A DNA stretch of 64,000 nt from Escherichia phage phi92. A model generated the notes under the pieces. The model ran no database searches. It was not told the origin of the DNA and was given only the letters and a program-made list of their open reading frames with translations. A program made the position numbers and the translations under genes. Shown here piece after piece: positions 18,533-35,398 of the stretch; positions within the stretch are counted from its first letter, which is position 1, and every line of letters begins with the position of its first letter. The DNA is taken from the sequence record NC_023693.1; one strand, written 5' to 3'.

Positions 18533-18543
18533 ATAACTCCTTG

Positions 18544-19557
18544 TTAAAGACTTTCAATAACTTGACGACGCAGTTCATTGGCATCTGCAAGATTATAATT
18601 AAGACGAACGTGTTCTGCAAGCATCATACCACGATCTTCTGTGTATCTAGGATTCCTAATTAGCTTGACAACTTCATAGTGCCAAGATGCTTTAGAGTCT
18701 GCATAGATAACAGCCTTTGCATCTACCGGATTGAAGTACGGCAGCACAGGAGAACAGATAATAGGAAGACCCTTTGCACCTGCTTCCAAAATCTTCAAAT
18801 TGCTTTTACAGTTGTTGAAGTCATTATCTACCAGAGGAGCAATTGCAATACTATGACCGTCATACACAGACATATACTCACCTAAATTTTTAATAGCTGG
18901 TTTATACTGTGCATTTGGAATTTTACGTTTTATTTTAACCCACTCCGCAGTAGTTAGATACTGACTATTATTTCCAACAGGTGCAGAAGGATACACTTCA
19001 TACCCTGCAATTGTCAATAGTGTATCATCAAATGTATTAGCTACAAGAGATAAATCAGGCTCATGGCTTGCTCCTCCAGCCCAGATAATAGGTGTGTCAG
19101 AACTACGGTCTTTTGTCAAAGTAAATTGACCTTCGTCGTAAGGTAGTGCGTTTCTAATTACGACAACATTACGATTTAAATGACGAATTTTGTAAGCTAG
19201 GTATTCTGTTGTTACAGTAACAACATCTGCTAACTTAACCATCTCTACAATAGTCTTTGAATGATTAGTAAATACGCCAGCCATATAATGTTCAGGATTA
19301 AGTGAATAAAAGTCATCTAAATCAACAATAATCTTAACACCTTGTGCCTTCAGGCGTTTAACCTCGTCTGCTCCACGAGAATACACTCTATTAAAAACTA
19401 AAACGTCTTTCTTAGGTTTAAATGTATTTCCAGCAAATGGCATTACAATACGATGGTAATCACAACCACTGCCTAACTTATTATCACACTTAAGTACAGG
19501 AGTATTAGGATTTACCATATTTTTGAGCCTCCTCATAAGAGATAAAAGTTTTACCAT
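18544..19557 (-). CDS. glycosyltransferase-like protein (paralog 2)
   Basis: 337 aa; paralog of 17588-18532. Confidence 0.5.
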   Translation of the reverse strand: MVKLLSLMRRLKNMVNPNTPVLKCDNKLGSGCDYHRIVMPFAGNTFKPKKDVLVFNRVYSRGADEVKRLKAQGVKIIVDLDDFYSLNPEHYMAGVFTNHSKTIVEMVKLADVVTVTTEYLAYKIRHLNRNVVVIRNALPYDEGQFTLTKDRSSDTPIIWAGGASHEPDLSLVANTFDDTLLTIAGYEVYPSAPVGNNSQYLTTAEWVKIKRKIPNAQYKPAIKNLGEYMSVYDGHSIAIAPLVDNDFNNCKSNLKILEAGAKGLPIICSPVLPYFNPVDAKAVIYADSKASWHYEVVKLIRNPRYTEDRGMMLAEHVRLNYNLADANELRRQVIESL

Positions 19558-20191
19558 TGCGAAGATCCTCCAGAGATTGTTTATATTGTTCCCAGTTTAC
19601 ACCAATCCCCTGTTCTTTCTCTTCTTTTGACAGATTCGCAAAAGGTAAAGGATTGTCTCCAAACACATCATCAGGATGGATAAACGCCATAATTCGAATA
19701 GGACATGGCACGCCTTGAATACCTCGGTTCAAACCTGCCAGTGGAACGCGATGAATCCACTCTGCATCTTCATATCCATAACCGTGGGTGTATGAGCGGA
19801 AATAGCCAGCTTTCTCAATAACTGCACGGGAATACATACCAAACTGGCACATACCTAGTTCCCAAATAACCACTTCCCCTTCAATACCTTTTACTTTATC
19901 TTTAAAGTATTCAGGCATACCAAAGAAATCCCAACCATTTTCCTTCGCCTGTTTTACAAAATATGTTTCCCAACCTGGAACAACAGGATAACAATCATCA
20001 TCAAAAATAAACCAGTAGTCATACCCTTCATCATAAAACTTTTTCATCAGTTCATTACGGGCATATGCAACACCTTTTCGTTCACGATCATACTGTACAA
20101 CAAAAGTAGCATTAGGATCAGTTACAAGATAATCTTTAAGAGGACGCTTACCTACAGTAATAACACCAACACCAATTTTTGTATTTTCCAA
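19505..20191 (-). CDS. GT-A-like glycosyltransferase
   Basis: 228 aa; DxD-type acidic motif YWFIFDDDCYP after a Rossmann-like N-terminus. Confidence 0.45.
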   Translation of the reverse strand: MENTKIGVGVITVGKRPLKDYLVTDPNATFVVQYDRERKGVAYARNELMKKFYDEGYDYWFIFDDDCYPVVPGWETYFVKQAKENGWDFFGMPEYFKDKVKGIEGEVVIWELGMCQFGMYSRAVIEKAGYFRSYTHGYGYEDAEWIHRVPLAGLNRGIQGVPCPIRIMAFIHPDDVFGDNPLPFANLSKEEKEQGIGVNWEQYKQSLEDLRNGKTFISYEEAQKYGKS

Positions 20192-20200
20192 AATAACTCC

Positions 20201-20764
20201 TTAAATAATTTTATTCATGTCTTGACAATGTAAAAGGTGTGAAACAGCTTTTCTAGGATCATCATTACCTAAACGGTATGTGTGAAATAAATATAACCCA
20301 CGTAGTAAACCTAGCCTTTTATTGTTAGCGTGCAATGCTTTAGAGAAAATTATATCAAACTGTATTGATCTTTCCTCAAAAGGAATTTCATTCCACAGAC
20401 TCTTACGAAAGAGAAGAAAGAATCCTGCTAAGATAGCATCTGTAGGTACTTCCTCTATTGAGTTTCCCCATTCTAGATGTGCTCTTTTTGCAATCTCAAT
20501 GTGGTGTAATATATTCGGATCTTCACTTCTTTCATTATTAAATAATTGATATGTTGATCCCAATCTGTTACAAGATGCACCAAGAACATCAAAATCAGGA
20601 TTTGAACGGACAATTGATTCCAGCCAAGCAGGTTGTTCTGGAAGAAGAAACATTGTATCAATGTCTCTTAGGCAAATCCAACTATCTTCTGGTAAGACAC
20701 TTATTGTGTCATTGATACCTTTTCCAATATCTCCAGAAAGATAGGGAGTTATGTGAAATATCAT
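20201..20764 (-). CDS. hypothetical protein (possible fourth glycosyltransferase-like gene)
   Basis: 187 aa ORF contiguous with the glycosyltransferase operon; acidic motif ICLRDIDTMF. Confidence 0.35.
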   Translation of the reverse strand: MIFHITPYLSGDIGKGINDTISVLPEDSWICLRDIDTMFLLPEQPAWLESIVRSNPDFDVLGASCNRLGSTYQLFNNERSEDPNILHHIEIAKRAHLEWGNSIEEVPTDAILAGFFLLFRKSLWNEIPFEERSIQFDIIFSKALHANNKRLGLLRGLYLFHTYRLGNDDPRKAVSHLLHCQDMNKII

Positions 20765-20821
20765 ACTCCCTCCGTATTATTACTTTAGCATTTTTAGACT
20801 AAAAAGTCCAAATGGTTTTAC

Positions 20822-21016
20822 CTATTGATTACGTTTTGCGAGTTCCATTTGGATAGCTAAACTGTGATCTCGTGCTTCCATATATTCTTTATATGTTTCA
20901 TTAAGATGATCACGACAAACATCACGCAGTTTAATCAGTTTATCTGTAGGGATACCACTAAGATCATCCCAAGATTTTACAACTTCACCAGTATCATTGA
21001 TCCCAATGGTTTTCAT
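20822..21016 (-). CDS. hypothetical protein
   Basis: 64 aa ORF. Confidence 0.3.
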   Translation of the reverse strand: MKTIGINDTGEVVKSWDDLSGIPTDKLIKLRDVCRDHLNETYKEYMEARDHSLAIQMELAKRNQ

Positions 21017-21272
21017 CTACAACCTCCTTAATTGCTACAGCACAGTTTTTGCAGATACACTGCCCTTTACCTTTAGAAATCTGGATGTAAGGTTCATTTT
21101 CATTTTCGCCCTTACGTGAGTCATATATTACAGAATTGAAGCACACAACGCAAATATTTTTTAAGATTGTATACTTATCAACTTTCTTTTTTGTTTTAAA
21201 GTTAACTTCAATAACATCAGCCATCAGTGTAACACTCCCAGTATGTTGCTTTGTGACATAACCATAGAACAT
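20994..21272 (-). CDS. zinc-ribbon protein
   Basis: 92 aa; paired CVVC...CICKNC cysteine motifs. Confidence 0.4.
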   Translation of the reverse strand: MFYGYVTKQHTGSVTLMADVIEVNFKTKKKVDKYTILKNICVVCFNSVIYDSRKGENENEPYIQISKGKGQCICKNCAVAIKEVVDENHWDQ

Positions 21273-21502
21273 TCAACATTATCGTGACTACGTGAAAAAC
21301 GTTCCCAAACATCTTCATCGACTCGTAAAGCTATACAAGGATAGACGTTATCATTGATCATTTCAATTGAATAAACATCCACATTGTCTTCGTCTTCGAT
21401 GAACATCATTGCAAACTGTTCTAAATGTTTCCTAATGTAATGTACATCCTCTTCTGTAAGACCAATAACAAGATAACTTGCAACGATAACGCCATCTTTC
21501 AT
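21224..21502 (-). CDS. hypothetical protein
   Basis: 92 aa ORF. Confidence 0.35.
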   Translation of the reverse strand: MKDGVIVASYLVIGLTEEDVHYIRKHLEQFAMMFIEDEDNVDVYSIEMINDNVYPCIALRVDEDVWERFSRSHDNVECSMVMSQSNILGVLH

Positions 21503-21512
21503 CTATATCTCC

Positions 21513-22022
21513 TTAGCGATAGAATTGATGTTCTTTGTAGCGGTACACTAGAACCATATCTTTTTCCCAGTGTGCTCTTATTGTAGATTTTTTAAAGTAT
21601 AATGCTCCTTTTGTAATATCTAATGCAATTCGTAATTCTGGAAAATGCGTATCGAGATAAAGTAGACGTTCTGCTATAGCCTTAGCTTCCTTCCACTTAT
21701 CACGTTCCATAACGTTGAATGTCTTTGTGTAAGAGAATTGTCCTTTTTGAAACAAAACTTCTTTTATAGTATCAGGGAAATATGAATCTCTAGCCCTATT
21801 CAATACTACATTACCAACAGCAGACATACCGCGCTTTCCTTGATTACGACTTTCTGCATAGATTGCACAAGCTAATAGATTTTCTTTACTATCACGCTTT
21901 GTACACTTGTGAACTACTTTAGCAGTTTTTACGTTTGCAGCTTCGGCTTGCGCCACAACAGGTGTAAATGTAAAAGCAGTTAAGGATAGTAACGCAATTG
22001 CGACAAAGGTTTTTATTGACAA
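21513..22022 (-). CDS. secreted cell-wall hydrolase (SleB/CwlJ-like)
   Basis: N-terminal signal peptide MSIKTFVAIALLSLTAFTFTPVVAQA; core AIYAESRNQG...VGNVVLNRA resembles the SleB-type hydrolase domain. Confidence 0.5.
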   Translation of the reverse strand: MSIKTFVAIALLSLTAFTFTPVVAQAEAANVKTAKVVHKCTKRDSKENLLACAIYAESRNQGKRGMSAVGNVVLNRARDSYFPDTIKEVLFQKGQFSYTKTFNVMERDKWKEAKAIAERLLYLDTHFPELRIALDITKGALYFKKSTIRAHWEKDMVLVYRYKEHQFYR

Positions 22023-22114
22023 ACTTGCCTCCTATTTTGTTAAACGAACTTTTATTGTAACACAGAAGAGGCTGTTTTGCAAGTGGAGGGGGATTATCCC
22101 CCTCTTACACTCTG

Positions 22115-22717
22115 TTAGATATTGTAAACCTTTGTATGAGTTACTACACCATCTTCTACAAAATCAATACGTTCTTGATCCGTAACTAGTGCAGACAACA
22201 CTTTAAATTTAATTTTTACACGTTCAAAAGCTGGTTGACCATCTTTAAGATAATTATGTTCAGTTGTCACTGTCTTGTTTACAAAATCAATTTTTGCTTT
22301 ACCGTTTTCGCGTAGGTGGAATGTTTTTCCTGCTTTGTACACAATTTCAACATTACCTTCGAGAATAATTCCTTCAAAAAGTTCACCATCTTCTTCATTT
22401 TCTTCACTTTTGAACAGACGACGAAACTCTTCCATATCAAGATAAACAACATCTTCAGGATGACTATCAGTAAGGTATGTCCTACCATCCATTAACCCGA
22501 AATATTGCCAGACTGCAGAATAAACATCACAATTTGATCCTGCGGTTTCCTTTAGTTTAGTTCCACGGATTACTTCATAAACTTCAAAATTAAAACCAGA
22601 CTGCAAAGCATTAAACAGTACATCACTAACTTCTAAAGCATAATCTTCATTGTTGTCAATATCCACAAGAAAATTACCGCTACGAATAAGTTTTTGACCT
22701 ACTAAAGTAATACCCAT
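22115..22717 (-). CDS. hypothetical protein
   Basis: 200 aa ORF. Confidence 0.4.
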   Translation of the reverse strand: MGITLVGQKLIRSGNFLVDIDNNEDYALEVSDVLFNALQSGFNFEVYEVIRGTKLKETAGSNCDVYSAVWQYFGLMDGRTYLTDSHPEDVVYLDMEEFRRLFKSEENEEDGELFEGIILEGNVEIVYKAGKTFHLRENGKAKIDFVNKTVTTEHNYLKDGQPAFERVKIKFKVLSALVTDQERIDFVEDGVVTHTKVYNI

Positions 22718-22742
22718 TGTTTTCTCCTCTTCTATTTAAAAT

Positions 22743-22758
22743 ATGCGCCCCGAAGGGC
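22743..22758 (-). terminator. terminator-like hairpin
   Basis: GCGCCC-CGAA-GGGCGC immediately downstream of the TerD-like gene. Confidence 0.35.
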
Positions 22759-22769
22759 GCTATGATTTA

Positions 22770-23366
22770 TTACTCGAACCAATCGTCGCCAGCGCCAAAC
22801 GCTTTAACTACATCGTAAATATCAAGCCCAGCTTTACCCACACCATACGCTTTCAGTTTCCATTCGCTATCTTCTCGCACCAGGGAGGCAACGTGGCAAA
22901 TGGTGTTACCTGCAAGTTCTGGAGCCAAGAAGTCAAAGTCCAGCAGTTCAACATTACGTTCATCATCGAAGATTTTAAGGAAACCTTCGGTAGCGTGACC
23001 AAGGCGTTTCTTACCCGTTTCGTCATCAATAGTAATTACGAATGCAATTTCCTGTGCTTCAGCAGAGATATTATCCAGTGTAACATCAATCTGCTCCATT
23101 TGTCCTACACCGTCACGAACATCTTCACCTGCAAAAGTAGAACGTTCAGGATCAAATTTCTGTGCGTAGCATACCAGGTGGCGAGGAGACAACAGTTCCG
23201 GCAGACCAGATGCATTGTGTCGGCAAATCAGAGCACTAACATCCAGATCCAGTTTTTCGTTAGATTTCCAAGAGAATTCCAGACGAATGCGTTTCAGTGC
23301 TGGTGCGATCTTTTTCAGGGAAACTTTTTCGCTAGAACCTTTTTTCAGGGAAATTTTCTGAGTCAT
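22770..23366 (-). CDS. TerD-domain stress-response protein
   Basis: 198 aa; N-terminus ISLKKGSSEKVSLKK and overall pattern typical of the TerD family. Confidence 0.65.
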   Translation of the reverse strand: MTQKISLKKGSSEKVSLKKIAPALKRIRLEFSWKSNEKLDLDVSALICRHNASGLPELLSPRHLVCYAQKFDPERSTFAGEDVRDGVGQMEQIDVTLDNISAEAQEIAFVITIDDETGKKRLGHATEGFLKIFDDERNVELLDFDFLAPELAGNTICHVASLVREDSEWKLKAYGVGKAGLDIYDVVKAFGAGDDWFE

Positions 23367-23438
23367 AATTTATTATCTCCTTTGTTGTTAATTTACGTTG
23401 TCTATTTTACTAATCTTTTCTACAAAGTCAAGCGTTTT

Positions 23439-24233
23439 TTACGCTTTTGCTCCGAATTTTTTAACCCACTCACCAAACTCTTCGGATAACAGTTTATCGT
23501 AAAGTTCTTCGTCAGACAAGGACAAATCTGCAATACCGATAAAATCAACATTATCGTATTCTTTTGCCAAGTCTTTCAGGAATTTAAAGTTTGCATTACC
23601 TACACCAACCATAAACCAGTAAACAGGAGTGTTGCGGTGTTTGTTCAGCAAACTACGTACTGCTGAAGTATCCATGTTCTCCCCGTCAGTTTGGAAGAAA
23701 ATCATTGCAGGAGTACGATCAACTTGTGCATCAGTATCTACAACCTGTTCTACAACAGTACGTGTAACTTCTACACGTTCTTTTTTACCAGTTAGTTTAG
23801 CAAGGAAACCCTTAGCCGGAACTTCTTCATACTCAACGACTTCGCGTGTAATATTTTTCATAGGTACACTACCGAAGTATGTATCATAGATCTCTTGCAT
23901 TACTGGGGCATAAGCTGTACCACCATTGATGCAAACATTAGACATACAAGAGCCGACATAATCATCATATACATCAGCCGTTGCGGGAGGCAGTTCAAAA
24001 GAAGAACTATTGAAAGCCCACATGTCAATCTGTGCATTATCATCAAATTTCATACCAAACGGCAGCAGCTTACCTACAAAATCACTAACAGTGCCATCAC
24101 GATACAGCTCACACATACTACCCGAAATATCTAAGGCGCTACCGACACGAAGAACAACATCGTTAATCTTTTTCTTACGCAGAGATACGGTAAGAGTTTC
24201 TTGACGTTTTTTAAGACTGATTTTATTGGACAT
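23439..24233 (-). CDS. vWA-domain protein with TerD-like N-terminus
   Basis: ISLKKRQETLTVSLRKK N-terminus; MIDAS-like DISGSM, GGTAY and FFQTDGENMD blocks of a von Willebrand A domain. Confidence 0.55.
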   Translation of the reverse strand: MSNKISLKKRQETLTVSLRKKKINDVVLRVGSALDISGSMCELYRDGTVSDFVGKLLPFGMKFDDNAQIDMWAFNSSSFELPPATADVYDDYVGSCMSNVCINGGTAYAPVMQEIYDTYFGSVPMKNITREVVEYEEVPAKGFLAKLTGKKERVEVTRTVVEQVVDTDAQVDRTPAMIFFQTDGENMDTSAVRSLLNKHRNTPVYWFMVGVGNANFKFLKDLAKEYDNVDFIGIADLSLSDEELYDKLLSEEFGEWVKKFGAKA

Positions 24234-24234
24234 A

Positions 24235-24504
24235 TTATTTCTCCTTTCTGAGTGTAATGTTAGTAACTTCTAAATCCACTTCTACCATTTCTGTATCATA
24301 TGAAATACAGCTAAGTTGACCTCTTTGTGAACCGTTCAGACACATTGCTTGGTTTGTATTAACCTTAATAAACACTAAGTTTCTGAACGTATCTAAACCA
24401 GCATCTTGATAGGCAACATAATATACAAATGTATCACCTGCGTCAAGTTCTCCAAAACATTTAGGTTCATCTGATTCGTCGTCTTTGATATTAAATTTAA
24501 GCAC
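24235..24504 (-). CDS. hypothetical protein
   Basis: 89 aa ORF. Confidence 0.35.
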   Translation of the reverse strand: MLKFNIKDDESDEPKCFGELDAGDTFVYYVAYQDAGLDTFRNLVFIKVNTNQAMCLNGSQRGQLSCISYDTEMVEVDLEVTNITLRKEK

Positions 24505-25060
24505 TATCTTCTCCTTTACCTACTTTCAAGCCTAAATAGAAAGCCTCTCTAGTGATTTTTTGCAACTCGTTTAAAGAGATAGTTACAACTAAATCATCTT
24601 CAATTTCTAGTTTTGAGTCTTCTTCTGTCTCAATGCAAGTATTATGCACTTTGTGGTAAGGATTGTCAACACGTTTAAATTTATTATTTTCAGTGCTGAA
24701 GAAGCAATCTGGATCTTCTTCCCCATCACCCCAACCCTGGTTAGGATCTTCTTCAGATCTTTCTGTTGGGATCTCACCTGTAAAGTGTTCTTCTAATACC
24801 AGAGCAATCCCATCTCCAAGATCGGAAGAGAACATCAAATTACAAACTTCTTCCCAAGGCATAGACCACTTAAATCTTTTACGATTGCCATGTTTATCTT
24901 CTTCGTTAGAGAAAACACTACCATAGCTATCATAATTCCCATACATCTCTTCGACAACCTTACCACCTTTCAAAAGAAATAGGTAGCAAGGAGAGCCATC
25001 GAAAGAGGTAGAGAGAGCAGCATTACCAGACTCTTTGCACAAGAAACTAAAACACCCCAT
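24497..25060 (-). CDS. hypothetical protein
   Basis: 187 aa ORF. Confidence 0.4.
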   Translation of the reverse strand: MGCFSFLCKESGNAALSTSFDGSPCYLFLLKGGKVVEEMYGNYDSYGSVFSNEEDKHGNRKRFKWSMPWEEVCNLMFSSDLGDGIALVLEEHFTGEIPTERSEEDPNQGWGDGEEDPDCFFSTENNKFKRVDNPYHKVHNTCIETEEDSKLEIEDDLVVTISLNELQKITREAFYLGLKVGKGEDSA

Positions 25061-25260
25061 TATACACCAGCCTTAAGATCAATTAAAGCCAAAGTTGTTT
25101 CAGAGTGTGTTTGCTCGTCTACAGGCGCAGTCATATGATAATACAAAAAATCTTCGGCATCATACCAATCTGATTCTTGACCTTGTTTCCAACCATCAAT
25201 GAAAGCATCTTCCATAATGGTTTGCAATTCTTCACGAGTTAAGTGAATATCTTTACTCAT
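25060..25260 (-). CDS. hypothetical protein
   Basis: 66 aa acidic ORF. Confidence 0.35.
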   Translation of the reverse strand: MSKDIHLTREELQTIMEDAFIDGWKQGQESDWYDAEDFLYYHMTAPVDEQTHSETTLALIDLKAGV

Positions 25261-25493
25261 TACACATTCTCCTCTTTTACCAATTCCATCGTTGAATTGT
25301 CAAAACCATCTTTAGAAGAATAGGTATAGACAGAACGTAGTTCTCGCAGGACAGTGAATACATTAGGATCATCTAACCAAGCATCCTGGAGGAGAACATA
25401 ACGATCTTCATTGTCATACTGAACAGCAATCATAGAACCAGACAGTTTGTAAATTTTAATATTCATAATATATTTCTCCTTAAAGTAGACCAC
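25260..25493 (-). CDS. hypothetical protein
   Basis: 77 aa ORF. Confidence 0.35.
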   Translation of the reverse strand: MVYFKEKYIMNIKIYKLSGSMIAVQYDNEDRYVLLQDAWLDDPNVFTVLRELRSVYTYSSKDGFDNSTMELVKEENV

Positions 25494-26583
25494 GTTTAAC
25501 AGTTTGAATCATACCATCTTCAAGAGATTGCACTTCTTGAATGTAATCAATACGGGCAGCACGGGCTTCAGTGTTGATTCGGTTAGTTTCTTCCAACATT
25601 TTAACTAAGTTTTCTTGATCACGACGTAATGTTTCAATATCCAATACTTGACGATTAGCAAGTTGTGTAGCTTCAATTTGGTTTTGTGCAGCCAGATCAC
25701 TACCCATTGCAATAGCAGCATTAAATTCATTCAGTACATTGTTCTGTGTATCGGCTGCTTTCTTCTGGCGTAGACTTTCAATATACATAGAAAAGTTTGC
25801 AGAGTAAGCAGGGATAACATTATTCACAATATTACGGGCTGATCGCATCAAACTTGCAGATACTTTCTGCATACTTTGTACACGTGGCCCCATCTGAACA
25901 CACAGTAAGCGTAAGGCTTTCAGGTCTGCAATACGAATTTCAAGCAGATCCATAGTATCACGAGTACGCTGACGCTCTTCTACGTCATTTTCAGGCAGTG
26001 TATTAAGGCGAATTTCTTCTTTTTCATAAGTAGCTGTTAGAAGCTCTATATCTCTGTTTAAGCTAAGAGCATATTTTGCAATAGCCTCTTCTAAACGTTG
26101 CAGATATCGTAAAGAATCTTCTTCTTTTTTCAAGTCTGTTTGGAGTGTCTTTACCAAACCTTCAATACGGTTATTAATGGTGTCAAATTCTCCAAACAAA
26201 TCTTCTTTCATACCTAAAACTTTTTTAACTAGTTTACCTAAACCTTTAGATTGTTTAATAGAGTTAGGATCAAGTTGCTTTGCTTGCTTAATAAGTGCAG
26301 TTAAACGTTCACTCATTTCATCTCCCTGAGATGAACGCTGGTGTTTAAGCACTTCAGCATTAAGGTTACGAAGAGTAAGTCCTGCATCAGCACCAACCTG
26401 TTCAATCTCTTCACGCGACATTGGAGGCAGCATTTGTACAGGTCGTGCAACAGCAGGGGCATATACAGGGCTTGCATCCATAGCACTTGGAGCAAACAAA
26501 GACTTACTTTTTTCTGTTGTTGCCGTGAATACACTCATTTCAGACGGTTTGCTTTTTACGGCACTGATAAAAGGACTGGACAT
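25480..26583 (-). CDS. TelA-like (toxic anion resistance family) protein
   Basis: 367 aa, long helical coiled-coil-like sequence resembling the TelA/KlaA family. Confidence 0.55.
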   Translation of the reverse strand: MSSPFISAVKSKPSEMSVFTATTEKSKSLFAPSAMDASPVYAPAVARPVQMLPPMSREEIEQVGADAGLTLRNLNAEVLKHQRSSQGDEMSERLTALIKQAKQLDPNSIKQSKGLGKLVKKVLGMKEDLFGEFDTINNRIEGLVKTLQTDLKKEEDSLRYLQRLEEAIAKYALSLNRDIELLTATYEKEEIRLNTLPENDVEERQRTRDTMDLLEIRIADLKALRLLCVQMGPRVQSMQKVSASLMRSARNIVNNVIPAYSANFSMYIESLRQKKAADTQNNVLNEFNAAIAMGSDLAAQNQIEATQLANRQVLDIETLRRDQENLVKMLEETNRINTEARAARIDYIQEVQSLEDGMIQTVKRGLL

Positions 26584-26651
26584 TCAATTTCCTCCATATT
26601 CTTTAGTAAATGGTGATACCTCTGTACCACCATCATAACACAAATTAAGTA

Positions 26652-27521
26652 TTAAACAAACATATCTAAATAATTTGTAGTAATAAATGCTCCATCTGCT
26701 TCCAGATTAACATAACCAGTAGCATTAGTGGTTAAGAAATCCAGATCGAAGGACTCTTTAACACCCCGTACCTCAACACGAGAGATATCGAATACAGGTA
26801 GTGTAACAGCCTCTTCGTGCAATACCGTACCTTTGTAGGTTGCCTTAATGATAAACTTGATATTACCTGTTCCAGCATCATATAAAACACTTTCAAACCC
26901 TTTGAGAGTATATTTATCACCAGAGGTGAAGTGCAAAGTTGCTTTGTTTACAGTACGGTTCTTACGAGGAGTTCCTTTCACACGTTTATGATCACTACGT
27001 CTTTTGCATTTAGGAATGAATACAAACGATACACTCTCAAGAAAGGTATCAACATCAAGGATTTTAATATCCTCTGTTGCAGCAAATTTTGAAGTAGTTG
27101 CATCAAAATGCTTTTCCCTGCGATCATACATAAAGATATCAAACCGATCTTCTAAATCAAACCGATCTTCTAAATCAAACAAATTATGCAGTTTAATTTC
27201 AGAATGCTTGCACATTGCAGCAACCTTAAACTCTTCAAAACGTGGGTGTTCTACAAGTTCTTCAAGTTTTACACCAAAGACAGTATATTGTTTCGAAGTT
27301 TTTTCTGGTGTTGGCATTACAGAAGCATAATCACCGATTGCGCTCTTAAAGCAAAATTGTTCTTGACCTGTATTTTTACCAACGAATTTACAGTATTCGT
27401 CATCGTGCATACTTTCCTGGGTAGTACCAACAAACTCAAAACCATCTTTATTCTTCTCAAGGATTTCTTGATTAAAGATCCAACCTTCCAGGCGATATAC
27501 TTTACCAACTTCTAGTTTCAT
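26652..27521 (-). CDS. hypothetical protein
   Basis: 289 aa ORF; contains an exact 18-bp in-frame tandem duplication (EDRFDL twice). Confidence 0.4.
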   Translation of the reverse strand: MKLEVGKVYRLEGWIFNQEILEKNKDGFEFVGTTQESMHDDEYCKFVGKNTGQEQFCFKSAIGDYASVMPTPEKTSKQYTVFGVKLEELVEHPRFEEFKVAAMCKHSEIKLHNLFDLEDRFDLEDRFDIFMYDRREKHFDATTSKFAATEDIKILDVDTFLESVSFVFIPKCKRRSDHKRVKGTPRKNRTVNKATLHFTSGDKYTLKGFESVLYDAGTGNIKFIIKATYKGTVLHEEAVTLPVFDISRVEVRGVKESFDLDFLTTNATGYVNLEADGAFITTNYLDMFV

Positions 27522-27556
27522 CTGTTTCTCCTTCTTATTTAATCTGTATTAAATTA

Positions 27557-28162
27557 TTAACGACGACGTGAGCTACTAAAACTACGTTTCGACGAAGAAT
27601 AACTTTTCGAAGACTTACTATAAGAGCTAATAGGGCTTGAGTAAGACTTACGAGCAGAGTAATCACTATTCACTTTCGTTGTTGATGGGCGTGAATACGT
27701 TTGTACACTTTGCTGCTTAATTGTGTTTTGTTTAGTGGTTGTATATGTATTTCCTTGTTTATCATAAAAACTATGCTTTTGTGTTGTATATGCTTTACTG
27801 TTAGTTGTAGGAGCAGCGTTGTTATTAATAATTGTTGTGTTGCTACCACCATCTCTATAACCGCCACCGCCACTATTACCACTCAACATATGACCAAGAA
27901 GCATACCTGTAGCAAACTCACCTACACCAGAAGAACCACTGCCGCCTCCTTGCACAACAACTGTTGAAGGTTGTGCAGGTGCTGCTTGAACAACTTGAGG
28001 TGCAGGCTGATTTACATATTGTTCATCTACCATCTGATTTGGTGTTTGTTGGTAACGTTGATTTTGTACATTTTCAGAATCATCACAACCTACCAGCAAT
28101 GCACTACCTAAAACAACTGCAACAATAAAAGATTTAATGTTTTTCATTTGTAACCCTCTCAT
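27557..28162 (-). CDS. lipoprotein with low-complexity Q/S/T/Y-rich region
   Basis: Signal peptide with lipobox LLVGC; G-rich and S/Y/K-rich low-complexity C-terminus. Confidence 0.45.
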   Translation of the reverse strand: MRGLQMKNIKSFIVAVVLGSALLVGCDDSENVQNQRYQQTPNQMVDEQYVNQPAPQVVQAAPAQPSTVVVQGGGSGSSGVGEFATGMLLGHMLSGNSGGGGYRDGGSNTTIINNNAAPTTNSKAYTTQKHSFYDKQGNTYTTTKQNTIKQQSVQTYSRPSTTKVNSDYSARKSYSSPISSYSKSSKSYSSSKRSFSSSRRR

Positions 28163-28340
28163 TTAAAGTCTCAACACAATTTTTAAAATCCCTAGAGAAA
28201 CAATACATCTGTTCTCCGTTCCTGTTGATAGTAATTGTATGGTTATCAATATATGTTGTCAAGATAAAAATCAAACAAAACAACCCTAGAGCAAAACAAA
28301 TATTTTCAAACAGAATCCAAAGAACACGTAAAACCACCAT
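28134..28340 (-). CDS. small membrane protein
   Basis: 68 aa, hydrophobic segment; overlaps start of downstream gene. Confidence 0.3.
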   Translation of the reverse strand: MVVLRVLWILFENICFALGLFCLIFILTTYIDNHTITINRNGEQMYCFSRDFKNCVETLNERVTNEKH

Positions 28341-28379
28341 CAGATCACCTCAACAAAGCCCCCGAAGGGGCTTAATGAA

Positions 28380-29357
28380 TTAAGCAACAGTCTGGTCTTC
28401 TTTTTCAGGGAAGATTAAACTTGCAACAACACCCAACCCAAGAGTACCTAACACAATATACATACTGATCGTCGGATCAATGTGTGCTGGCAGGAAACTG
28501 GCTTTTGCGTGCAGAGTTTCTGCAAACGGGTGATACATCAGTTTTACACCCACAAACACCAGGACTACGATAACTGCTTTCTCCAGATGAACCAAATATT
28601 TCAGTGCAACACTAAGGACAAAGAACAGAGCACGTAGACCTAAGATTGCACAGAGCATCGAAGAGAACACTAGCAGAGGTTCTTGTGTCACTGCAATCAC
28701 TGCTGGAACAGAGTCTACTGCAAAGATTACGTCAACCATTTCCATTACAAACACACAAACCAGAGCCGGAGTTGCTACACGAACACCATTTTTGATTGTG
28801 AAGAACTTCTCACCATCCATCTGATCAGATACAGGGAACAGCTTACGAACAATGCGAGTAGCCCAGTGTTTAGAGTAATCAACTTCTGCATCATTATCTC
28901 CAGCGAATACCATTTTAGCCGCACAGAAAAGGATGACAGCACCGAAGAAGATATTAACATACCAGCCCAAACTCAACAAGTAAGTACCTACTGCTACAAA
29001 CACACCTCGGAAGACAATCGCACCTGCAATACCCCAAAGTAGAATCTTGTGCTGCAAGTGTGTGCTTTTAATACCAAAACTTGCGAATACTGCTACAAAT
29101 ACTACTAAGTTATCTACAGAAAGAGATTTCTCCAACACATACCCACTCAAGAACAAGCTCGCAAAATCAGCACCGTGTTGGAAGTATACAAAACCATAGT
29201 AGGCTAATGATACCCCAATCCAGAAAATTGACCAGCCAATTGCAGATTTAAATGAAATTTCTTTGTTTTCTCTGTGTCCAAAGAAATCAATACAAATCGA
29301 CAAGACTAAAATACCCACTAAAACAACCACATCAATAATTGGGAAACCCAGTTGCAT
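28380..29357 (-). CDS. TerC-family integral membrane protein
   Basis: 325 aa with multiple hydrophobic helices and conserved acidic residues in helices, as in TerC. Confidence 0.6.
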   Translation of the reverse strand: MQLGFPIIDVVVLVGILVLSICIDFFGHRENKEISFKSAIGWSIFWIGVSLAYYGFVYFQHGADFASLFLSGYVLEKSLSVDNLVVFVAVFASFGIKSTHLQHKILLWGIAGAIVFRGVFVAVGTYLLSLGWYVNIFFGAVILFCAAKMVFAGDNDAEVDYSKHWATRIVRKLFPVSDQMDGEKFFTIKNGVRVATPALVCVFVMEMVDVIFAVDSVPAVIAVTQEPLLVFSSMLCAILGLRALFFVLSVALKYLVHLEKAVIVVLVFVGVKLMYHPFAETLHAKASFLPAHIDPTISMYIVLGTLGLGVVASLIFPEKEDQTVA

Positions 29358-29375
29358 TCTTTTCTCCTCTTTAAT

Positions 29376-29396
29376 GCGGAGGACAATCCTCCGCTC
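29376..29396 (-). promoter_or_regulatory. hairpin in leader of TerC-like gene
   Basis: GCGGAGG-ACAAT-CCTCCGC located between the - strand RBS and the upstream gene. Confidence 0.3.
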
Positions 29397-29434
29397 TATG
29401 TCGTATACTATAAACTGTTTTTAAAGAAAGTCAA

Positions 29435-29683
29435 CTAGTTCAGTTCTGTAATTTTAAGTTTATCTTCTTTGTTAATGATAGGGAAAGCTACAGCATCACC
29501 TACATCATCAATAAAGCAAATAGCAAGACCACCTTCCACTTTGCTAACCTGACCATTAAAGGCGTGATACGGGGCAGGAACAATATCTCCATCTTCAAGG
29601 AGAATAGCCTCATAAACCTTACCAATAGTACAATCACGAGTGTTTTTAAATTTTTCAAGCACTTCAACATTTACTTTACGCAT
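29435..29683 (-). CDS. hypothetical protein
   Basis: 82 aa ORF. Confidence 0.35.
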   Translation of the reverse strand: MRKVNVEVLEKFKNTRDCTIGKVYEAILLEDGDIVPAPYHAFNGQVSKVEGGLAICFIDDVGDAVAFPIINKEDKLKITELN

Positions 29684-29697
29684 ATAAAGATCCTCTC

Positions 29698-29904
29698 TTA
29701 TTTGTTAGATTGAAAGATACCACGAAGTACCGCAAGAATGAACGTCACACAGACTACACTCCAAAACGTTACAGGAACATGATGCCAGTCTAAACCGATA
29801 ATGTCAATCATATAGTTGTATGCTAAAAGCAGTAGCCAACTAGGGATTAACACAATCAAGAACACAACAATAAAACAACCTAATACTGCTAAAACACCTG
29901 CCAT
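29698..29904 (-). CDS. small membrane protein
   Basis: 68 aa with two hydrophobic helices. Confidence 0.35.
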   Translation of the reverse strand: MAGVLAVLGCFIVVFLIVLIPSWLLLLAYNYMIDIIGLDWHHVPVTFWSVVCVTFILAVLRGIFQSNK

Positions 29905-29913
29905 ACTTTCTCC

Positions 29914-30630
29914 TTATTTCAGTTTGTAAACAATTACATTTAAACCTTTGTTCACTAGAGTTTCTTCGATCATAAGTTTTACAATATTCCAAGAACCTCC
30001 AGCCAAACCACAACCAAGCATTGGTAAACCTACAATTTTACCGCCTGAAGATACAACATCGTCTCCCATACTATCTAACGCATTGTAGATAGCTTCATAA
30101 TTCAGGTCACGCTTACCTTCCTCACGACGACTATAACCATATTGTCCATATAAATTATAAATTGTCAAATTGTTTTCTGTATACTTAGTAAACGTACCTA
30201 ATTTTTTATAATCACCACGTTTAGTGGCACAATCTGCTTTAAACGCACCAGGCCACTTGCTTTTAATTTTTGGTGCAATACCACTACCCATAGTGCAAAA
30301 ACAGTTACAGCAGTGTGCTATAGCGTCTATATCGCCTCTCTCGGCTGCTGCTAAAAGATCACCGTATACCTCAATGATACCTGCTGGATAACTTGTTACA
30401 ATTTCATCTTCCCAGTACATTTGCTCTACACCACCGATCAGTGCAAAGTTTTGTGTAATGCGATCATCAATATAATTAAGACCTGAAACATACACAGCAT
30501 ATTCATCCTGTGCTGTAATACCTTGTACACGAATTCTTAAGACACCATCTTTATCTGTTGCTACACGCCCAAAATCTTTTTCTGTAATATTGGTGATAGG
30601 ATCTCCGAAAGTCGTCACTTTATTAGACAT
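29914..30630 (-). CDS. macro-domain (ADP-ribose binding/hydrolase) protein
   Basis: GDIDAIAHCCNCFCTMGSGIAPKI and GLPMLGCGLAGGSW match macro-domain signature blocks; start set to ATG (MSNKV) with RBS aaagggga, 2 nt after the upstream stop. Confidence 0.5.
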   Translation of the reverse strand: MSNKVTTFGDPITNITEKDFGRVATDKDGVLRIRVQGITAQDEYAVYVSGLNYIDDRITQNFALIGGVEQMYWEDEIVTSYPAGIIEVYGDLLAAAERGDIDAIAHCCNCFCTMGSGIAPKIKSKWPGAFKADCATKRGDYKKLGTFTKYTENNLTIYNLYGQYGYSRREEGKRDLNYEAIYNALDSMGDDVVSSGGKIVGLPMLGCGLAGGSWNIVKLMIEETLVNKGLNVIVYKLK

Positions 30631-31480
30631 AATAATCCCCTTTAACATTAGATTTGTTGATAATGTTGCTTTCAAAAAATTGACGCAGGAAATCAAAGTT
30701 CTCTTTGTATTTTTCAATATTATTGTAACCTTCTGCAAGGCAACCAAAGAACAGTTGTTCTACATAATACAAAGGAAGTTGTGAAAGTGCAATTTTAAAA
30801 TCAACTTCGCTTTGACTCATTAGATACTTAATAGGACGAACCAAACATTTAGCATCAGTTTCTTGCTTAATCATTTTAATAAAAGCTGCCAGGTTATTGA
30901 TATAGTTGAAGTTAAGTGCAGCTTCGGTGTTGGCTTCTGTACCTTCATACTTTGCAAAGTACAGGAAAAACGTATCGTTTTCAACACCTTCTTTGTCTAA
31001 AATTTCAATAAGTTTTTCTTCGTGTGTACCTGTAATATTAACATCATCAATGAAAATCAGATTTTTATCGCCCCAAAAATCACGATTGATAGAGAAAGTA
31101 TCACCATCGATCAAAGCCTTACGATCTTCTTTGCTAAGAAATCCATAATCATTGATATAGCTCACTTTACGATGAACGATATCCCACTCTACTGCTTTAC
31201 CTCCTTTGATAGAGATTAGGTAGTTGAGGTGATCTACAAAATGTTCAGATAACACTGTAGCTGCATTTTTAACATAGTTATATGGAGATGGAATAACAAC
31301 AAAACTTTCATTTACCAGTCGTTCTTCATATTTAGAAAAGAAACTTTCAGCCAGAATGCGTCCCATTCTTTTTGCTGCCTGGTTGCTGCCAAACTTTAGT
31401 TTGGAATAATCTGCAATGTTAAATTTTGCTTCCTTCAGGTTAGTAAAAGTATTAGCAAAATGTTGAATTTGATTACGCAT
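30623..31480 (-). CDS. phosphoribosyltransferase-fold protein
   Basis: PRPP-binding-type motif NLIFIDDVNITGTHEE. Confidence 0.5.
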   Translation of the reverse strand: MRNQIQHFANTFTNLKEAKFNIADYSKLKFGSNQAAKRMGRILAESFFSKYEERLVNESFVVIPSPYNYVKNAATVLSEHFVDHLNYLISIKGGKAVEWDIVHRKVSYINDYGFLSKEDRKALIDGDTFSINRDFWGDKNLIFIDDVNITGTHEEKLIEILDKEGVENDTFFLYFAKYEGTEANTEAALNFNYINNLAAFIKMIKQETDAKCLVRPIKYLMSQSEVDFKIALSQLPLYYVEQLFFGCLAEGYNNIEKYKENFDFLRQFFESNIINKSNVKGDYYV

Positions 31481-32129
31481 TAATAAGTTCCTCTTTTTTA
31501 AGTTTAGCCAACAAGTCTTCTGGATTAATAATATGACAGAACTTCATCCCTATGTCAACAGCTTTTCCATCATAAATCAAACTATCTCCAACGTGTAAAA
31601 TCTCCTCTGGTGCGAGATCAAACGTTACCATTTCATCAAAAGAGAGTTTAAAAAACCTAGGATCTGGTTTACACAAGCAAAACTCATCAGAAAAATGCAT
31701 AAAGTCAAATGGTAATTTTGTCAAGCCAGAATATACAGCTAAGAAACTACCAGGTACAAAATTAGTATTGCTCTTAATACTCAAAGAGTAGGTTGAACTT
31801 AGCTCTTCCAACTTCTTGCAAAGTTCAGGATTCAAGGTTGGAGGATGTTTTATAAACATTGCTAAACAGTCTCTTTTTAACCCATCCACTTTATCAAGAT
31901 CAATGTTCAAACGAGTAGAAAGTGTTACCCAAGCATCCTTAGACGTTCCACAAATGCCTTTTTCTGCTTTTAAATCCAAGAGAGTTTTTACCTCTTTATA
32001 TACGGTAGCTGCTTCTACCTCAGAACAAGAGGCATACTCGGCAATAACCTTGTTGCGCTCTTCTGCATACAAAGGGTTAGCAGTAATAAGAGTATTCCAT
32101 ACATCAAAAGAAATATGCTTAACAGTCAT
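31473..32129 (-). CDS. HAD-superfamily hydrolase-like protein
   Basis: Motif I-like FDVWNTL (second Asp replaced), motif II SIKSNT, motif IV GDSLIYDGK; start set to ATG (MTVKHISF) after RBS ggagga. Confidence 0.5.
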   Translation of the reverse strand: MTVKHISFDVWNTLITANPLYAEERNKVIAEYASCSEVEAATVYKEVKTLLDLKAEKGICGTSKDAWVTLSTRLNIDLDKVDGLKRDCLAMFIKHPPTLNPELCKKLEELSSTYSLSIKSNTNFVPGSFLAVYSGLTKLPFDFMHFSDEFCLCKPDPRFFKLSFDEMVTFDLAPEEILHVGDSLIYDGKAVDIGMKFCHIINPEDLLAKLKKEELINA

Positions 32130-32131
32130 TT

Positions 32132-32287
32132 TTAATCCTCCGTCCAAAAGAATATCATCTGCTTAATTTTATTGATTTCTTGATGTAGTAACTTTCCAGC
32201 ATGTGATTGATCTTTAATATTGACAGCAAGAATTTCAAGTTCCGTTAGTTTTTCTTGGATAGCTTTATATTCATCATCTGTAAGCAT
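32132..32287 (-). CDS. small hypothetical protein (51 aa)
   Basis: ATG with RBS aagggga; in-frame stop overlaps RBS of the HAD gene; below track size cut-off. Confidence 0.35.
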   Translation of the reverse strand: MLTDDEYKAIQEKLTELEILAVNIKDQSHAGKLLHQEINKIKQMIFFWTED

Positions 32288-32298
32288 TTTCTTCCCCT

Positions 32299-32502
32299 TT
32301 AGAATGGTAATCTTTGTATGTCACTTATCCCCACACCAAGAAGTCTAGCAATATCCTTATCTAAAAGCAACTCTTTTTGTTCTAAAATGTTAATCAGATC
32401 TCCTAATACTTCTTTAATGTCACGATCATTTTTAGCAACGTGACCACCTGCCGTATCAACTTTATCTTTAAAAACAAAGTAATGATCCATAATACCCTCC
32501 AT
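32299..32502 (-). CDS. hypothetical protein
   Basis: 67 aa ORF. Confidence 0.35.
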   Translation of the reverse strand: MEGIMDHYFVFKDKVDTAGGHVAKNDRDIKEVLGDLINILEQKELLLDKDIARLLGVGISDIQRLPF

Positions 32503-32509
32503 ATAAATA

Positions 32510-32528
32510 AAGGAGGCTTTCGCCTCCT
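32510..32528 (-). terminator. terminator hairpin
   Basis: GGAGGC-TTTC-GCCTCC with flanking A/T runs, downstream of the ATPase gene. Confidence 0.45.
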
Positions 32529-32536
32529 TTTATCAC

Positions 32537-33697
32537 TTAGTAAGAACGAGCACCAAACACATACTCTGTGTAGTTTTTACGTTCTTTGTTTTTAATAACA
32601 ACTTCAATGTTGTTGCCTTTATCATCGGTGAACACAAAGTGATAACCGTCACCACCCATTGTACGGATGTGTTTTTCATCATACGTCAGCAAGATACGGT
32701 CTACACCCCAGTAGTAGTCACCTTCTTCATCTTTGTCTTCTACTGTAACGACCCCTTCCATTTCAGGAAGATGTTCTTCTCCTAGCTTATGGTCTACAGC
32801 TACAACATAACGATTACCGCTAAACAAACCCTGTGCTGTCATACCGTCAATATCGGTATCTGCCGAAACATCTCCTGTACGATCTACACCGTTGACTTTC
32901 AGAAGTTTAACTTCTTTTGCAGCATAGCGGTGTTCAGTAATACTGATACCCATTAATGCAAGTGCATCAGAGAATTTGTCATTAGGGTAACGGTTAAGTT
33001 CTTCTACTAATGACTGAACAATATCAAAGTTCAAGTCCACGGAAAGATTATAAAGCGTTTCAAAATCTGGTAAAAAGGCTTTGTTCTCCAGATTTTTAGC
33101 CAGATAGTCATCCATAGTAGCTTTAGGTAGTTTCTTATAGCTAAAGCTGTAGAAAATACGGCTAGGACGATTACGCAAAAATTCTGATACATAACCATCG
33201 TTTTTAGTCAATACAAACAGCTTGTCGTAGCCACCTACACCATCCAGCAGGGTAAGCAAGCCATCCTGTGCATCTTTTTCAGCATACAGTTTATCAAATT
33301 CATCGATCATAATCATCACAGGTTGTGTGATTTTAGACATAAAATTGATAAAGCCTTCGCCATTAAAAGCACTACCGATAGGAATAGTAGGAATACCCAT
33401 TTCACGAAGAGCAGAAGACAGCATTTTAGCTTGCAAAGTTTTACCGCTACCCTTCGTACCCTCAAGGAGAACACCTGTGTTTTTACCTTTGCGGCTAAGG
33501 AACGTCTTGATAATACGTTCTGATTTATCATCAGTATCACCGTATGTTACTGAAGGGACTTCCATATCGTTTTTAGGATACAGGAAGAACTCACCACTTT
33601 GAGTAACACCTACACCAAAAGTTCCTGCTGGAATTTCTTCAATATCTGTACCAGACTTCTGACGCAGGAAGATTTGATTGCCGAATACTGTAAACAT
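32537..33697 (-). CDS. P-loop ATPase (paralog of 48994-50121)
   Basis: Walker A GTKGSGKT, Walker B IMIDEFDKL; long collinear similarity to the + strand ATPase. Confidence 0.5.
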   Translation of the reverse strand: MFTVFGNQIFLRQKSGTDIEEIPAGTFGVGVTQSGEFFLYPKNDMEVPSVTYGDTDDKSERIIKTFLSRKGKNTGVLLEGTKGSGKTLQAKMLSSALREMGIPTIPIGSAFNGEGFINFMSKITQPVMIMIDEFDKLYAEKDAQDGLLTLLDGVGGYDKLFVLTKNDGYVSEFLRNRPSRIFYSFSYKKLPKATMDDYLAKNLENKAFLPDFETLYNLSVDLNFDIVQSLVEELNRYPNDKFSDALALMGISITEHRYAAKEVKLLKVNGVDRTGDVSADTDIDGMTAQGLFSGNRYVVAVDHKLGEEHLPEMEGVVTVEDKDEEGDYYWGVDRILLTYDEKHIRTMGGDGYHFVFTDDKGNNIEVVIKNKERKNYTEYVFGARSY

Positions 33698-33717
33698 AGT
33701 TTTCTCCTCTATTTAAT

Positions 33718-34188
33718 TTAGTCAGATTCCCAAATGTTGTCTTTCTTAATCCACATTCGTTGATTATCTGAACCTCTATAACGTTTCGTTGTTGGTTGAT
33801 TCATATCATACTTACCATCTATCACTATGTCAACCAGTTTTTTAATTTTTTCTGGAATTTCCTCAAAAAGATATCCTGTATATAAGACAATATCTTTTTT
33901 GTTTCCAAAACAATCTCTTACCTTCTCAAGAACATACTCTACAGTGTCAATGTTCTCTTTGTCAAGAGGTTCACCACCTAAAACTGTTAATCCTTTAATG
34001 AAAGGTCGAGATAAATCTTTCAAGATAAGATCTAATGTTTCAGTAGTGAACTCTTGTCCGTAGTTATACGACCAGGCTTTCTGGTTAAAGCAGCCACGGC
34101 AACCGTGGCTACAACCGCTCACCCACAAAGAGCATCTTACACCGTCACCGTTGAGCATGTCAACAGGTTCATATCCGGCGTAATTCAA
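33718..34188 (-). CDS. nrdG: anaerobic ribonucleotide reductase activating protein (radical SAM)
   Basis: CSHGCRGC radical-SAM cysteine cluster near N-terminus; 156 aa; adjacent to nrdD. Confidence 0.75.
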   Translation of the reverse strand: MNYAGYEPVDMLNGDGVRCSLWVSGCSHGCRGCFNQKAWSYNYGQEFTTETLDLILKDLSRPFIKGLTVLGGEPLDKENIDTVEYVLEKVRDCFGNKKDIVLYTGYLFEEIPEKIKKLVDIVIDGKYDMNQPTTKRYRGSDNQRMWIKKDNIWESD

Positions 34189-35164
34189 AAATGTTTCTCC
34201 CTTTCTAGTACCTCTTGCATTTTACCTTTATTATAAGGGCGAGAGTTAGGGGCAGAAAGGTATCCTGACACTCTTCTGATCACAGATATGGATTCTTCTT
34301 CATGATTACCGCAACTTGGACACTCGAAGCCTTTAGCCGTTGCTTTAAATTCACCATGAAAACCACATTTGAAACACTGATCTACAGGTTGGTTCACGCC
34401 AAAATAAGGAATTTTATTGTAGGCATAATCTACAAGAGTTTCCAGTGCTTGCAAGTTATTTTTAAGGTTTGGTGTTTCTACATAACCTATGTTCCCACCA
34501 TTACTAATTTGTGCAAAACCTTCCTCATAATCCCACTTTTGGAACGGGGTAGTGTGCATCCATACAGGTTGATGGAAAGAGTTTGTCAAGTAGTCACGAT
34601 CAATAGAACCAGGATAGCGATCATTTAACGCTTTGGCAAATTTATAGCACAAGGATTCTGCTGGTGTTCCATACAAACTAAAAGCTAAACCAGAACGTTC
34701 TTTAAATGTGCCACAGATATCCTTCATATATTGAAGGATGTTTTTACCCATTGCTTTTGGATTGGTGTTACCTGGGTATAAAATCTCCATAGCTTCTGCT
34801 AAACCTACATAACCGATACTAATAGAGGCATAACCACCTTCGAATAGTTTACCAATCTCTTCATTAGCTTCTAATCGAGCTAAAGCCCCTTCCATAAACA
34901 ATGTAGGGTTTTGAGATGCTTTGGTATGTCTAATACGGTTAACACGTAGCATATGTGCCTTATACGCCATCTCCATATGTTGTTCCAACAGTTCAGTAAA
35001 TAAGATGCCCTTTTCACGGGACTCTGCTGCAATGATAGGTAAGTTTAAAGAAACTACGCCTAAGTTGAAACGACCATCATATTTTTCACCTTGCTCTGTT
35101 GCATAGTATGACAAGAAACTTCTACACATTATGTTCAAAGTGGCTCGCAAGGCCACTCCCGCAC
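34185..35164 (-). CDS. nrdD: anaerobic ribonucleoside-triphosphate reductase, exon 2
   Basis: Glycyl-radical region RRVSGYL and C-terminal CFKCG...CPSCG zinc site; frame open upstream of the track start into the intron. Confidence 0.7.
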
Positions 35165-35398
35165 CATTACGTGCTGCTGCATGTCACCATGCAGATCAGA
35201 CTATATCTTCATGCTTAAAGCATGTCTACCATTTGGGGTGTCATAGGCTTACACCCTACGCTGCTACATTCATCACAGCTAGTCGTTAGGCATTTCGTAA
35301 CAGTACCCCCTTCTTCTGTGTTGGGAGTTCTGTTACGTTTAGCACGGGATTGTCTCGTTGAGAGTTCCCCCGTTTAGGCAGATTTTACATGAGCAGTT
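35165..35398 (-). ncRNA. group I intron (T4 td/nrdD-like), ORF-less; splice sites approximate
   Basis: About 235 nt interrupt nrdD; - strand reads ...TCTGCCTAAACGGGGGAACTCTCAACGAGACAATCCCGTGCTAAAC... closely resembling the conserved core of the T4 td intron as recalled from memory. Confidence 0.6.

What the first reader, a model, noticed from the sequence alone, without database searches (positions are those of the whole stretch)
27141..27176. Perfect 18-bp in-frame tandem duplication inside a coding sequence
AAACCGATCTTCTAAATC occurs twice in direct tandem on the + strand, duplicating the hexapeptide EDRFDL in the - strand protein 26652-27521. This is a very recent slippage event and a possible site of length polymorphism.
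Basis: seen in the sequence. Interest (0 to 1): 0.25.

Follow-up and report, generated by a model that had tools for sequence, protein, structure and literature searches.

The report
Private 18-bp duplication in phage gene
One phi92-like E. coli phage carries an extra, perfect in-frame copy of 18 bases (six amino acids) in a surface loop of an uncharacterised protein; every known relative has a single copy, so this is an ordinary one-off replication-slippage mutation rather than a variable or functional repeat.

Summary
Bases 27141-27158 and 27159-27176 are identical. The perfect period-18 array runs 27138-27180 (2.4 copies) and is the only perfect tandem duplication with a period above 7 in the window; about 2e-8 are expected by chance. 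It lies in frame in the minus-strand gene 26652-27521 (289 aa), the homologue of phi92 gp179 (phrog_27504, no Pfam match, function unknown). It turns FDLEDRFD into FDLEDRFDLEDRFD (aa 115-128).

All 53 related Justusliebigvirus genomes, 4 further contigs and all 15 listed members of a 191-member protein cluster have one copy (283 aa). The single-copy sequence is GTTTGAT-TTAGAAGATCG-GTTTGAT, a 7-bp direct repeat spaced exactly one unit apart. That is the classic substrate for slipped-strand duplication. The window's gene is nested within its relatives, so the duplication is derived. It is also the only indel in 20 kb against one relative.

The extra residues fall in a low-confidence coil at an indel-prone position of the family alignment. 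"Very recent" cannot be shown from copy identity alone. "Site of length polymorphism" is not supported beyond this one genome. An assembly artefact cannot be excluded without reads, but is unlikely. Verdict: ordinary, low interest.

The parts
27138..27180 (-). Perfect tandem array, period 18, 2.4 copies. On the coding strand it reads GTTTGAT-TTAGAAGATCG-GTTTGAT-TTAGAAGATCG-GTTTGAT and encodes (L)FDLEDRFDLEDRFD, aa 114/115-128.
   Evidence: TRF; own scan found a 25-nt identity run at period 18; sequence read directly.
27159..27176 (-). Either copy can be counted as the extra one; the alignment gap can be placed anywhere within the 25-nt overlap.
27141..27158 (-). Copy 2 in coding order (codons 122-127, DLEDRF). 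Each unit contains a GATC tetranucleotide.
27138..27144 (-). 7-bp microhomology ATCAAAC (GTTTGAT on the coding strand). It recurs at 27156-27162 and 27174-27180. Relatives have only two of these, 18 bp apart; this is the slippage substrate.
   Evidence: DNA alignments with 7 relatives
26652..27521 (-). Host gene, 289 aa: homologue of phi92 gp179 and a phrog_27504 member. Function unknown, no Pfam match. Relatives are 283 aa.
25480..26583 (-). Downstream neighbour: TelA-family (toxic anion resistance) protein.
   Evidence: Pfam PF05816 E=2.6e-34; phrog_5890
27557..28162 (-). Upstream neighbour: Ser/Gly/Gln-rich protein, homologue of phi92 gp180. The true start is probably the second Met, giving 196 aa as in relatives.
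   Evidence: phrog_21570 match from aa 6; annotation of relatives
28380..29357 (-). TerC-family integral membrane protein, in the same co-directional gene block.
   Evidence: Pfam PF03741 E=1.2e-38

Best explanation
This is a single, lineage-specific tandem duplication produced by slipped-strand mispairing during phage DNA replication, or by an equivalent microhomology-mediated unequal exchange. The ancestral gene contained two 7-bp direct repeats (GTTTGAT, the Phe-Asp codons plus one base) spaced 18 bp apart. The nascent strand ending in the second GTTTGAT re-paired with the first one on the template, so the intervening 18 nt were copied twice. Because 18 nt is six codons, the reading frame is kept. 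The protein gains DLEDRF in an acidic stretch that is modelled as a surface coil between a helix and a beta-strand of the middle domain, so the change is most likely neutral or nearly so. It is not a programmed or recurrently variable repeat.

Shown: the duplication itself, the single-copy state with flanking microhomology in all relatives, the derived polarity, and an intact gene under purifying selection. Inferred: the slippage mechanism, the loop location and the neutrality.
For: The repeat is perfect and far beyond chance.

All 53 relatives in the phage collection cover a 241-nt query with 223 nt, which is exactly 18 fewer. The same holds over 1.4 kb and at the protein level, 849 nt for 289 aa. 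Base-level alignments with 7 relatives all show AATTT-GTTTGAT-TTAGAAGATCG-GTTTGAT-ATC, invariant across the 25-nt core.

Distances in the gene are 0.018 between the window and ESCO9, but up to 0.043 among the relatives. The window is therefore nested and the two-copy state is derived. More distant homologues (21-32% identity) are no longer than the single-copy form at this alignment position, and the position is gap-rich.

Over 20 kb (17000-37000) against phage A150, at 98.1% identity, the 18-bp insertion is the only indel, so the assembly is not indel-prone.

The gene has dN/dS of 0.11-0.20. The AF2 model built with a 15-sequence alignment (mean pLDDT 75) places aa 112-128 in coil between helix 107-111 and strand 129-133, with pLDDT <50 at 120-124.
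Against: There are no reads, so the duplication cannot be verified independently of the assembly. No second genome carries it, and the exact 289-aa protein is absent from a 15-billion-protein collection. The structural placement rests on a medium-confidence model with a shallow alignment, and the low pLDDT at the site could simply reflect that the insert has no counterpart in the alignment. The mechanism is inferred from the product, because slippage and unequal recombination between the 7-bp repeats give the same result.
Confidence: 0.85

Rival explanations
1. Assembly or sequencing artefact: the real phage genome has one copy, and the second unit was introduced by mis-assembly, a consensus error or a PCR/cloning slip during sequencing.
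For: The allele is a singleton. None of the 53 relatives plus 4 contigs has it, no junction hits were found in three large collections, and the exact protein is not in the 15-billion-protein collection.
Against: A 36-43 nt array is far shorter than any sequencing read, so assemblers do not normally create or collapse it. The surrounding 20 kb shows no other indel against a 98%-identical relative and the ORF is intact. The product has exactly the structure expected from a biological slip between pre-existing 7-bp repeats.
Confidence: 0.07
2. Selected, functional expansion: the acidic FDLEDR motif is an interaction or metal-binding element of a protein that works with the neighbouring TelA/TerC genes, and doubling it was favoured in this phage, for example as adaptation to a host.
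For: The gp179 family keeps its position between TerC-like and TelA genes even in distant phages: Phapecoctavirus tuntematon and Pseudomonas phage PsgM04F. The single-copy 25-nt core is invariant in 7 relatives that differ by 1-4% elsewhere. The gene is under purifying selection.
Against: There is no recurrence in any other lineage. The motif itself is not conserved in distant homologues, and the site is gap-rich. The protein has no Pfam, PDB-sequence or informative fold match, so no binding function can be assigned. One event in one genome is what neutral mutation predicts.
Confidence: 0.05
3. A contingency or VNTR-type hypervariable locus whose copy number changes at high frequency, as the first reader's 'site of length polymorphism' suggests.
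For: Once duplicated, the 43-nt perfect array is itself a better slippage substrate than the ancestral 7-bp repeats (established knowledge of repeat instability; inference).
Against: There is no copy-number variation among 53 genomes, 4 contigs or the 15 listed members of the 191-member cluster. The array has only two full copies. The unit is a multiple of three and intragenic, so it cannot switch expression on and off.
Confidence: 0.03

Closest known systems
Slipped-strand (Streisinger-type) or microhomology-mediated tandem duplications and deletions between short direct repeats, as classically mapped in phage T4 rII and E. coli lacI (own knowledge of the literature, not re-read here)
   Same: The copies are head-to-tail with no spacer. 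The unit length equals the spacing of a pre-existing short (7-bp) direct repeat. The event is a single step, and the in-frame product is tolerated in a coding region.
   Different: Nothing substantive. It is simply an instance not present in the searched databases, and the event itself was not observed, only its product.
Phase-variable / contingency simple-sequence repeats and VNTRs in bacterial and phage genes
   Same: A tandem repeat inside a coding sequence that could in principle change copy number by slippage.
   Different: Only two copies; no variation among relatives; the 18-nt unit keeps the frame, so there is no on/off switching; no evidence of selection for variability.
phi92 gp179 / PHROG phrog_27504 (uncharacterised Stephanstirmvirinae protein encoded between TerC and TelA)
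   Same: The host protein matches the profile end to end (E=4.7e-197, aa 1-289 to profile 1-283) and has the same neighbours.
   Different: It is six residues longer than the profile and than every other member seen.

Membership tests
Slippage / microhomology-mediated tandem duplication | Two or more identical units directly abutting, head to tail | tested here: met
   27141-27158 equals 27159-27176 at 100%; the array is 27138-27180
Slippage / microhomology-mediated tandem duplication | The single-copy (ancestral) allele has a short direct repeat whose spacing equals the duplicated unit | tested here: met
   GTTTGAT...11 nt...GTTTGAT in all 7 aligned relatives
Slippage / microhomology-mediated tandem duplication | The duplicated state is derived, not ancestral | tested here: met
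   The window is nested within single-copy relatives by pairwise distance. Distant homologues are not longer at this site. All 53 relatives are single-copy.
Slippage / microhomology-mediated tandem duplication | The allele is present in the biological sample (read or PCR support) | not testable with these tools
   No reads are available. Indirect support only: it is the sole indel in 20 kb against a 98% relative.
Contingency locus / VNTR | Copy number differs among closely related genomes | tested here: not met
   All 53 genomes and 4 contigs have one copy. All 15 listed cluster members are 283 aa. The junction is absent from three collections.
Contingency locus / VNTR | Copy-number change shifts the frame or alters a promoter (on/off switching) | tested here: not met
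   The unit is 18 nt (6 codons) and lies inside the ORF, which stays open
phrog_27504 (phi92 gp179-like) | Full-length significant match to the family profile | tested here: met
   E=4.7e-197, aa 1-289 against profile 1-283/283
Ter stress-response proteins (TerD/TerB/TelA/TerC domains) | The host protein carries a recognised Ter-family domain | tested here: not met

The most novel reading that the evidence does not exclude
The gp179-like protein is an unrecognised, conserved partner of the phage TerC-TelA module (synteny is kept from E. coli to Pseudomonas phages), and the acidic FDLEDR loop is a functional contact or ion-binding element whose doubling in this phage is adaptive rather than neutral.
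Probability: 0.04. Interest if true: 0.4.

Novelty: new member of a known kind. Interest (0 to 1): 0.08.

Why it matters
It matters very little. It is a textbook-clean product of slippage between 7-bp microhomologies, and could serve as a strain-specific marker (an 18-bp amplicon length difference) for this phage among Justusliebigvirus isolates. Showing that it is a private, in-frame, loop-located insertion means it does not need to be treated as a functional repeat or a variable locus. The host gene's conserved position between TerC and TelA in several phage genera is the more interesting lead, but it is independent of the duplication.

Tried and rejected
1. Function of the host protein. Pfam gave nothing. 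PHROGs gave only unknown-function families. A profile search against PDB sequences gave nothing below E=0.39. HMMER against 1.84 billion representatives found only 16 hits, all uncharacterised.

3. Other carriers of the duplication. The 36-mer was absent from IMG/VR, and the junction 28-mer from JGI metagenome contigs and GTDB genomes. Positive controls with the single-copy 30-mer found 2 IMG/VR and 2 metagenome contigs, so these collections hold few relatives and the negatives are weak on their own. The 53-genome comparison carries the weight.

4. Exact-sequence look-up of the 289-aa protein: not in the collection.

5. Literature. A search for 'phi92' plus 'tellurite' found one unrelated cocktail-metagenomics paper. 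A search for 'Justusliebigvirus' plus 'TerC' found none.

6. Ancestral two-copy state with loss in the others: rejected on parsimony and nesting.

7. Phase variation: rejected, because the unit is a multiple of three and there is no variation.

Full report
**Observation.** The + strand reads ATC-AAACCGATCTTCTAAATC-AAACCGATCTTCTAAATC-AAAC at 27138-27180.
- Tandem Repeats Finder reports period 18, 2.4 copies, 100% matches and score 86.
- My own scan shows a 25-nt run of identity at period 18 (27138-27162). This is the only perfect tandem duplication with a period above 7 in the 64-kb window. From base composition, 1.7e-8 such runs are expected over periods 6-100.
The perfect array extends 3 nt to the left and 4 nt to the right.
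- The array lies in the minus-strand ORF 26652-27521 (289 aa) and is in frame.
- The in-phase duplicated peptide is DLEDRF (codons 116-121 and 122-127), and the protein reads ...HNL-FDLEDR-FDLEDR-FD-IFMY... (aa 115-128).

**Source of the window.** The region is 95-99% identical to 53 genomes of phi92-like E. coli myoviruses (genus Justusliebigvirus, subfamily Stephanstirmvirinae).
- No record is closer than about 98.4% over 20 kb.
- The host gene corresponds to phi92 gp179, according to the annotation of phage PATM.
- It matches PHROG phrog_27504 (unknown function) end to end, aa 1-289 against a 283-position profile. It has no Pfam match.
- It is a real gene: dN/dS against seven relatives is 0.11-0.20.

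**Comparison with relatives.** Every relative examined has exactly one copy.

| Comparison | Result |
|---|---|
| 241-nt query (27040-27280) against all 53 related genomes | 223 nt covered, exactly 18 fewer |
| 1401-nt query | 1383 nt covered |
| tblastn of the 289-aa protein | 849 nt covered |
| 90%-identity protein cluster, 191 members | all 15 listed members are 283 aa |
| Exact 289-aa protein in the 15-billion-sequence collection | absent |
| Junction-specific strings in IMG/VR, JGI metagenome contigs, GTDB genomes | absent |
| Single-copy control string | 2 IMG/VR and 2 metagenome contigs, each with one copy |

**Ancestral state and mechanism.** All seven relatives aligned at base level read AATTT-GTTTGAT-TTAGAAGATCG-GTTTGAT-ATC on the coding strand.
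- This is a 7-bp direct repeat whose spacing (18 bp) equals the duplicated unit. The window has GTTTGAT three times, with the 11-nt spacer twice.
- That is the signature expected from slipped-strand mispairing, or unequal exchange, between short direct repeats. The mechanism itself is inferred from the product; the model is established knowledge.
- Polarity: the window's gene differs from ESCO9 by 0.018, while relatives differ from one another by up to 0.043. The window is therefore nested among single-copy genomes.
- Homologues at 21-32% identity are no longer than the single-copy form here. The duplication is therefore derived: one gain on this lineage.

**Age.** With at most 1.8% divergence since the nearest known relative, at most about 0.3-0.65 substitutions are expected in 36 nt. 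Perfect identity of the copies therefore does not show that the event is 'very recent'. It only post-dates the split from all sequenced relatives. Because a 43-nt perfect array is prone to collapse, it is probably not old (inference).

**Artefact?** This cannot be tested without reads.
- Against phage A150, the 20-kb stretch 17000-37000 is 98.1% identical, and the 18-bp insertion is the only indel.
- Against PD114, the only other indels are three small ones elsewhere, and A150 does not share them.
- The array is much shorter than a sequencing read.
- I put the probability of an artefact at about 7%.

**Consequence for the protein.** HMMER against 1.84 billion representatives finds only 16 relatives.
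- These share a C-terminal domain of about 110 aa (KRxKG...TVNKA...SG..YT.K.F...VRGVN..F), behind variable N-terminal and middle modules.
- In that alignment the insertion site is gap-rich.
- An AF2 model built with the 15-sequence alignment (mean pLDDT 75, C-terminal domain about 90) puts aa 112-128 in coil between helix 107-111 and strand 129-133. pLDDT is below 50 at aa 120-124.
- The extra DLEDRF is thus most simply a lengthened acidic surface loop, likely tolerated (inference).

**Context.** The gene sits in a co-directional minus-strand block between a TelA-family gene (25480-26583) and a TerC-family membrane protein (28380-29357), with the Ser-rich gp180 homologue in between. Distant homologues in Phapecoctavirus tuntematon and in Pseudomonas phage PsgM04F also lie between TerC-like and TelA genes. 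The family is therefore a conserved, unexplained member of this phage TerC-TelA block. That is a lead about the gene, not about the duplication.

**Verdict.** This is a real, perfect, in-frame 18-bp tandem duplication, private to this genome and explained by slippage between pre-existing 7-bp repeats. It is not a variable locus and not a functional repeat on present evidence. It is ordinary: a new instance of a well-known kind of mutation. Interest is about 0.08.

Noticed in passing
window 25480-29357 (- strand); L008 1201-5500; L009 1849-6043: The gp179-like orphan family (only 16 representatives among 1.84 billion proteins) keeps its place between a TerC-family membrane protein and a TelA-family protein. 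This holds in Justusliebigvirus, in Phapecoctavirus (tuntematon gp097) and in Pseudomonas phage PsgM04F. It suggests an uncharacterised conserved partner of a phage TerC-TelA module.
   Followed up: partly
window 38599-41412 (- strand): A 937-aa UvrD-like helicase ORF carries an intein: Intein_splicing and Hint matches at about aa 267-613, between the helicase N- and C-terminal domains.
   Followed up: no
window 51939-52628: An ORF-free stretch of about 690 bp between genes contains a 67-bp x2 tandem repeat (52153-52284, 81% matches) and a 29-bp x2.1 repeat (52386-52447). It may be a regulatory or origin-like region.
   Followed up: no
window 4707-6668 (+ strand): A tail-spike/fibre protein (Tail_spike_N domain) has collagen-like G-X-Y runs (GDKGDKGDKG). 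These account for the 9-bp tandem repeats TRF reports at 5541-6061.
   Followed up: partly
window 50196-51386 (+ strand) and 48994-50121 (+ strand): A protein with four CapR-homology domains lies next to an AAA/STAND-like NTPase.
   Followed up: no
L010 (MG065639.1) and hits H20-H23: Four GenBank records named 'Campylobacter phage' (A150, A145, C3, A110a; marked UNVERIFIED) are 98% identical to this E. coli Justusliebigvirus over 20 kb. They are probably mislabelled or contaminant phages.
   Followed up: no
window 27141-27176: Each 18-bp unit contains a GATC tetranucleotide, so the duplication creates two GATC sites 18 bp apart where relatives have one (read from the sequence).
   Followed up: no
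P0002 (234 aa; ENA contig of 148 kb): One metagenomic relative of gp179 has a 7-aa deletion (aa 49-55) and a frameshifted, truncated C-terminus. The gene may therefore be dispensable in at least one genome, or that assembly contains errors.
   Followed up: no
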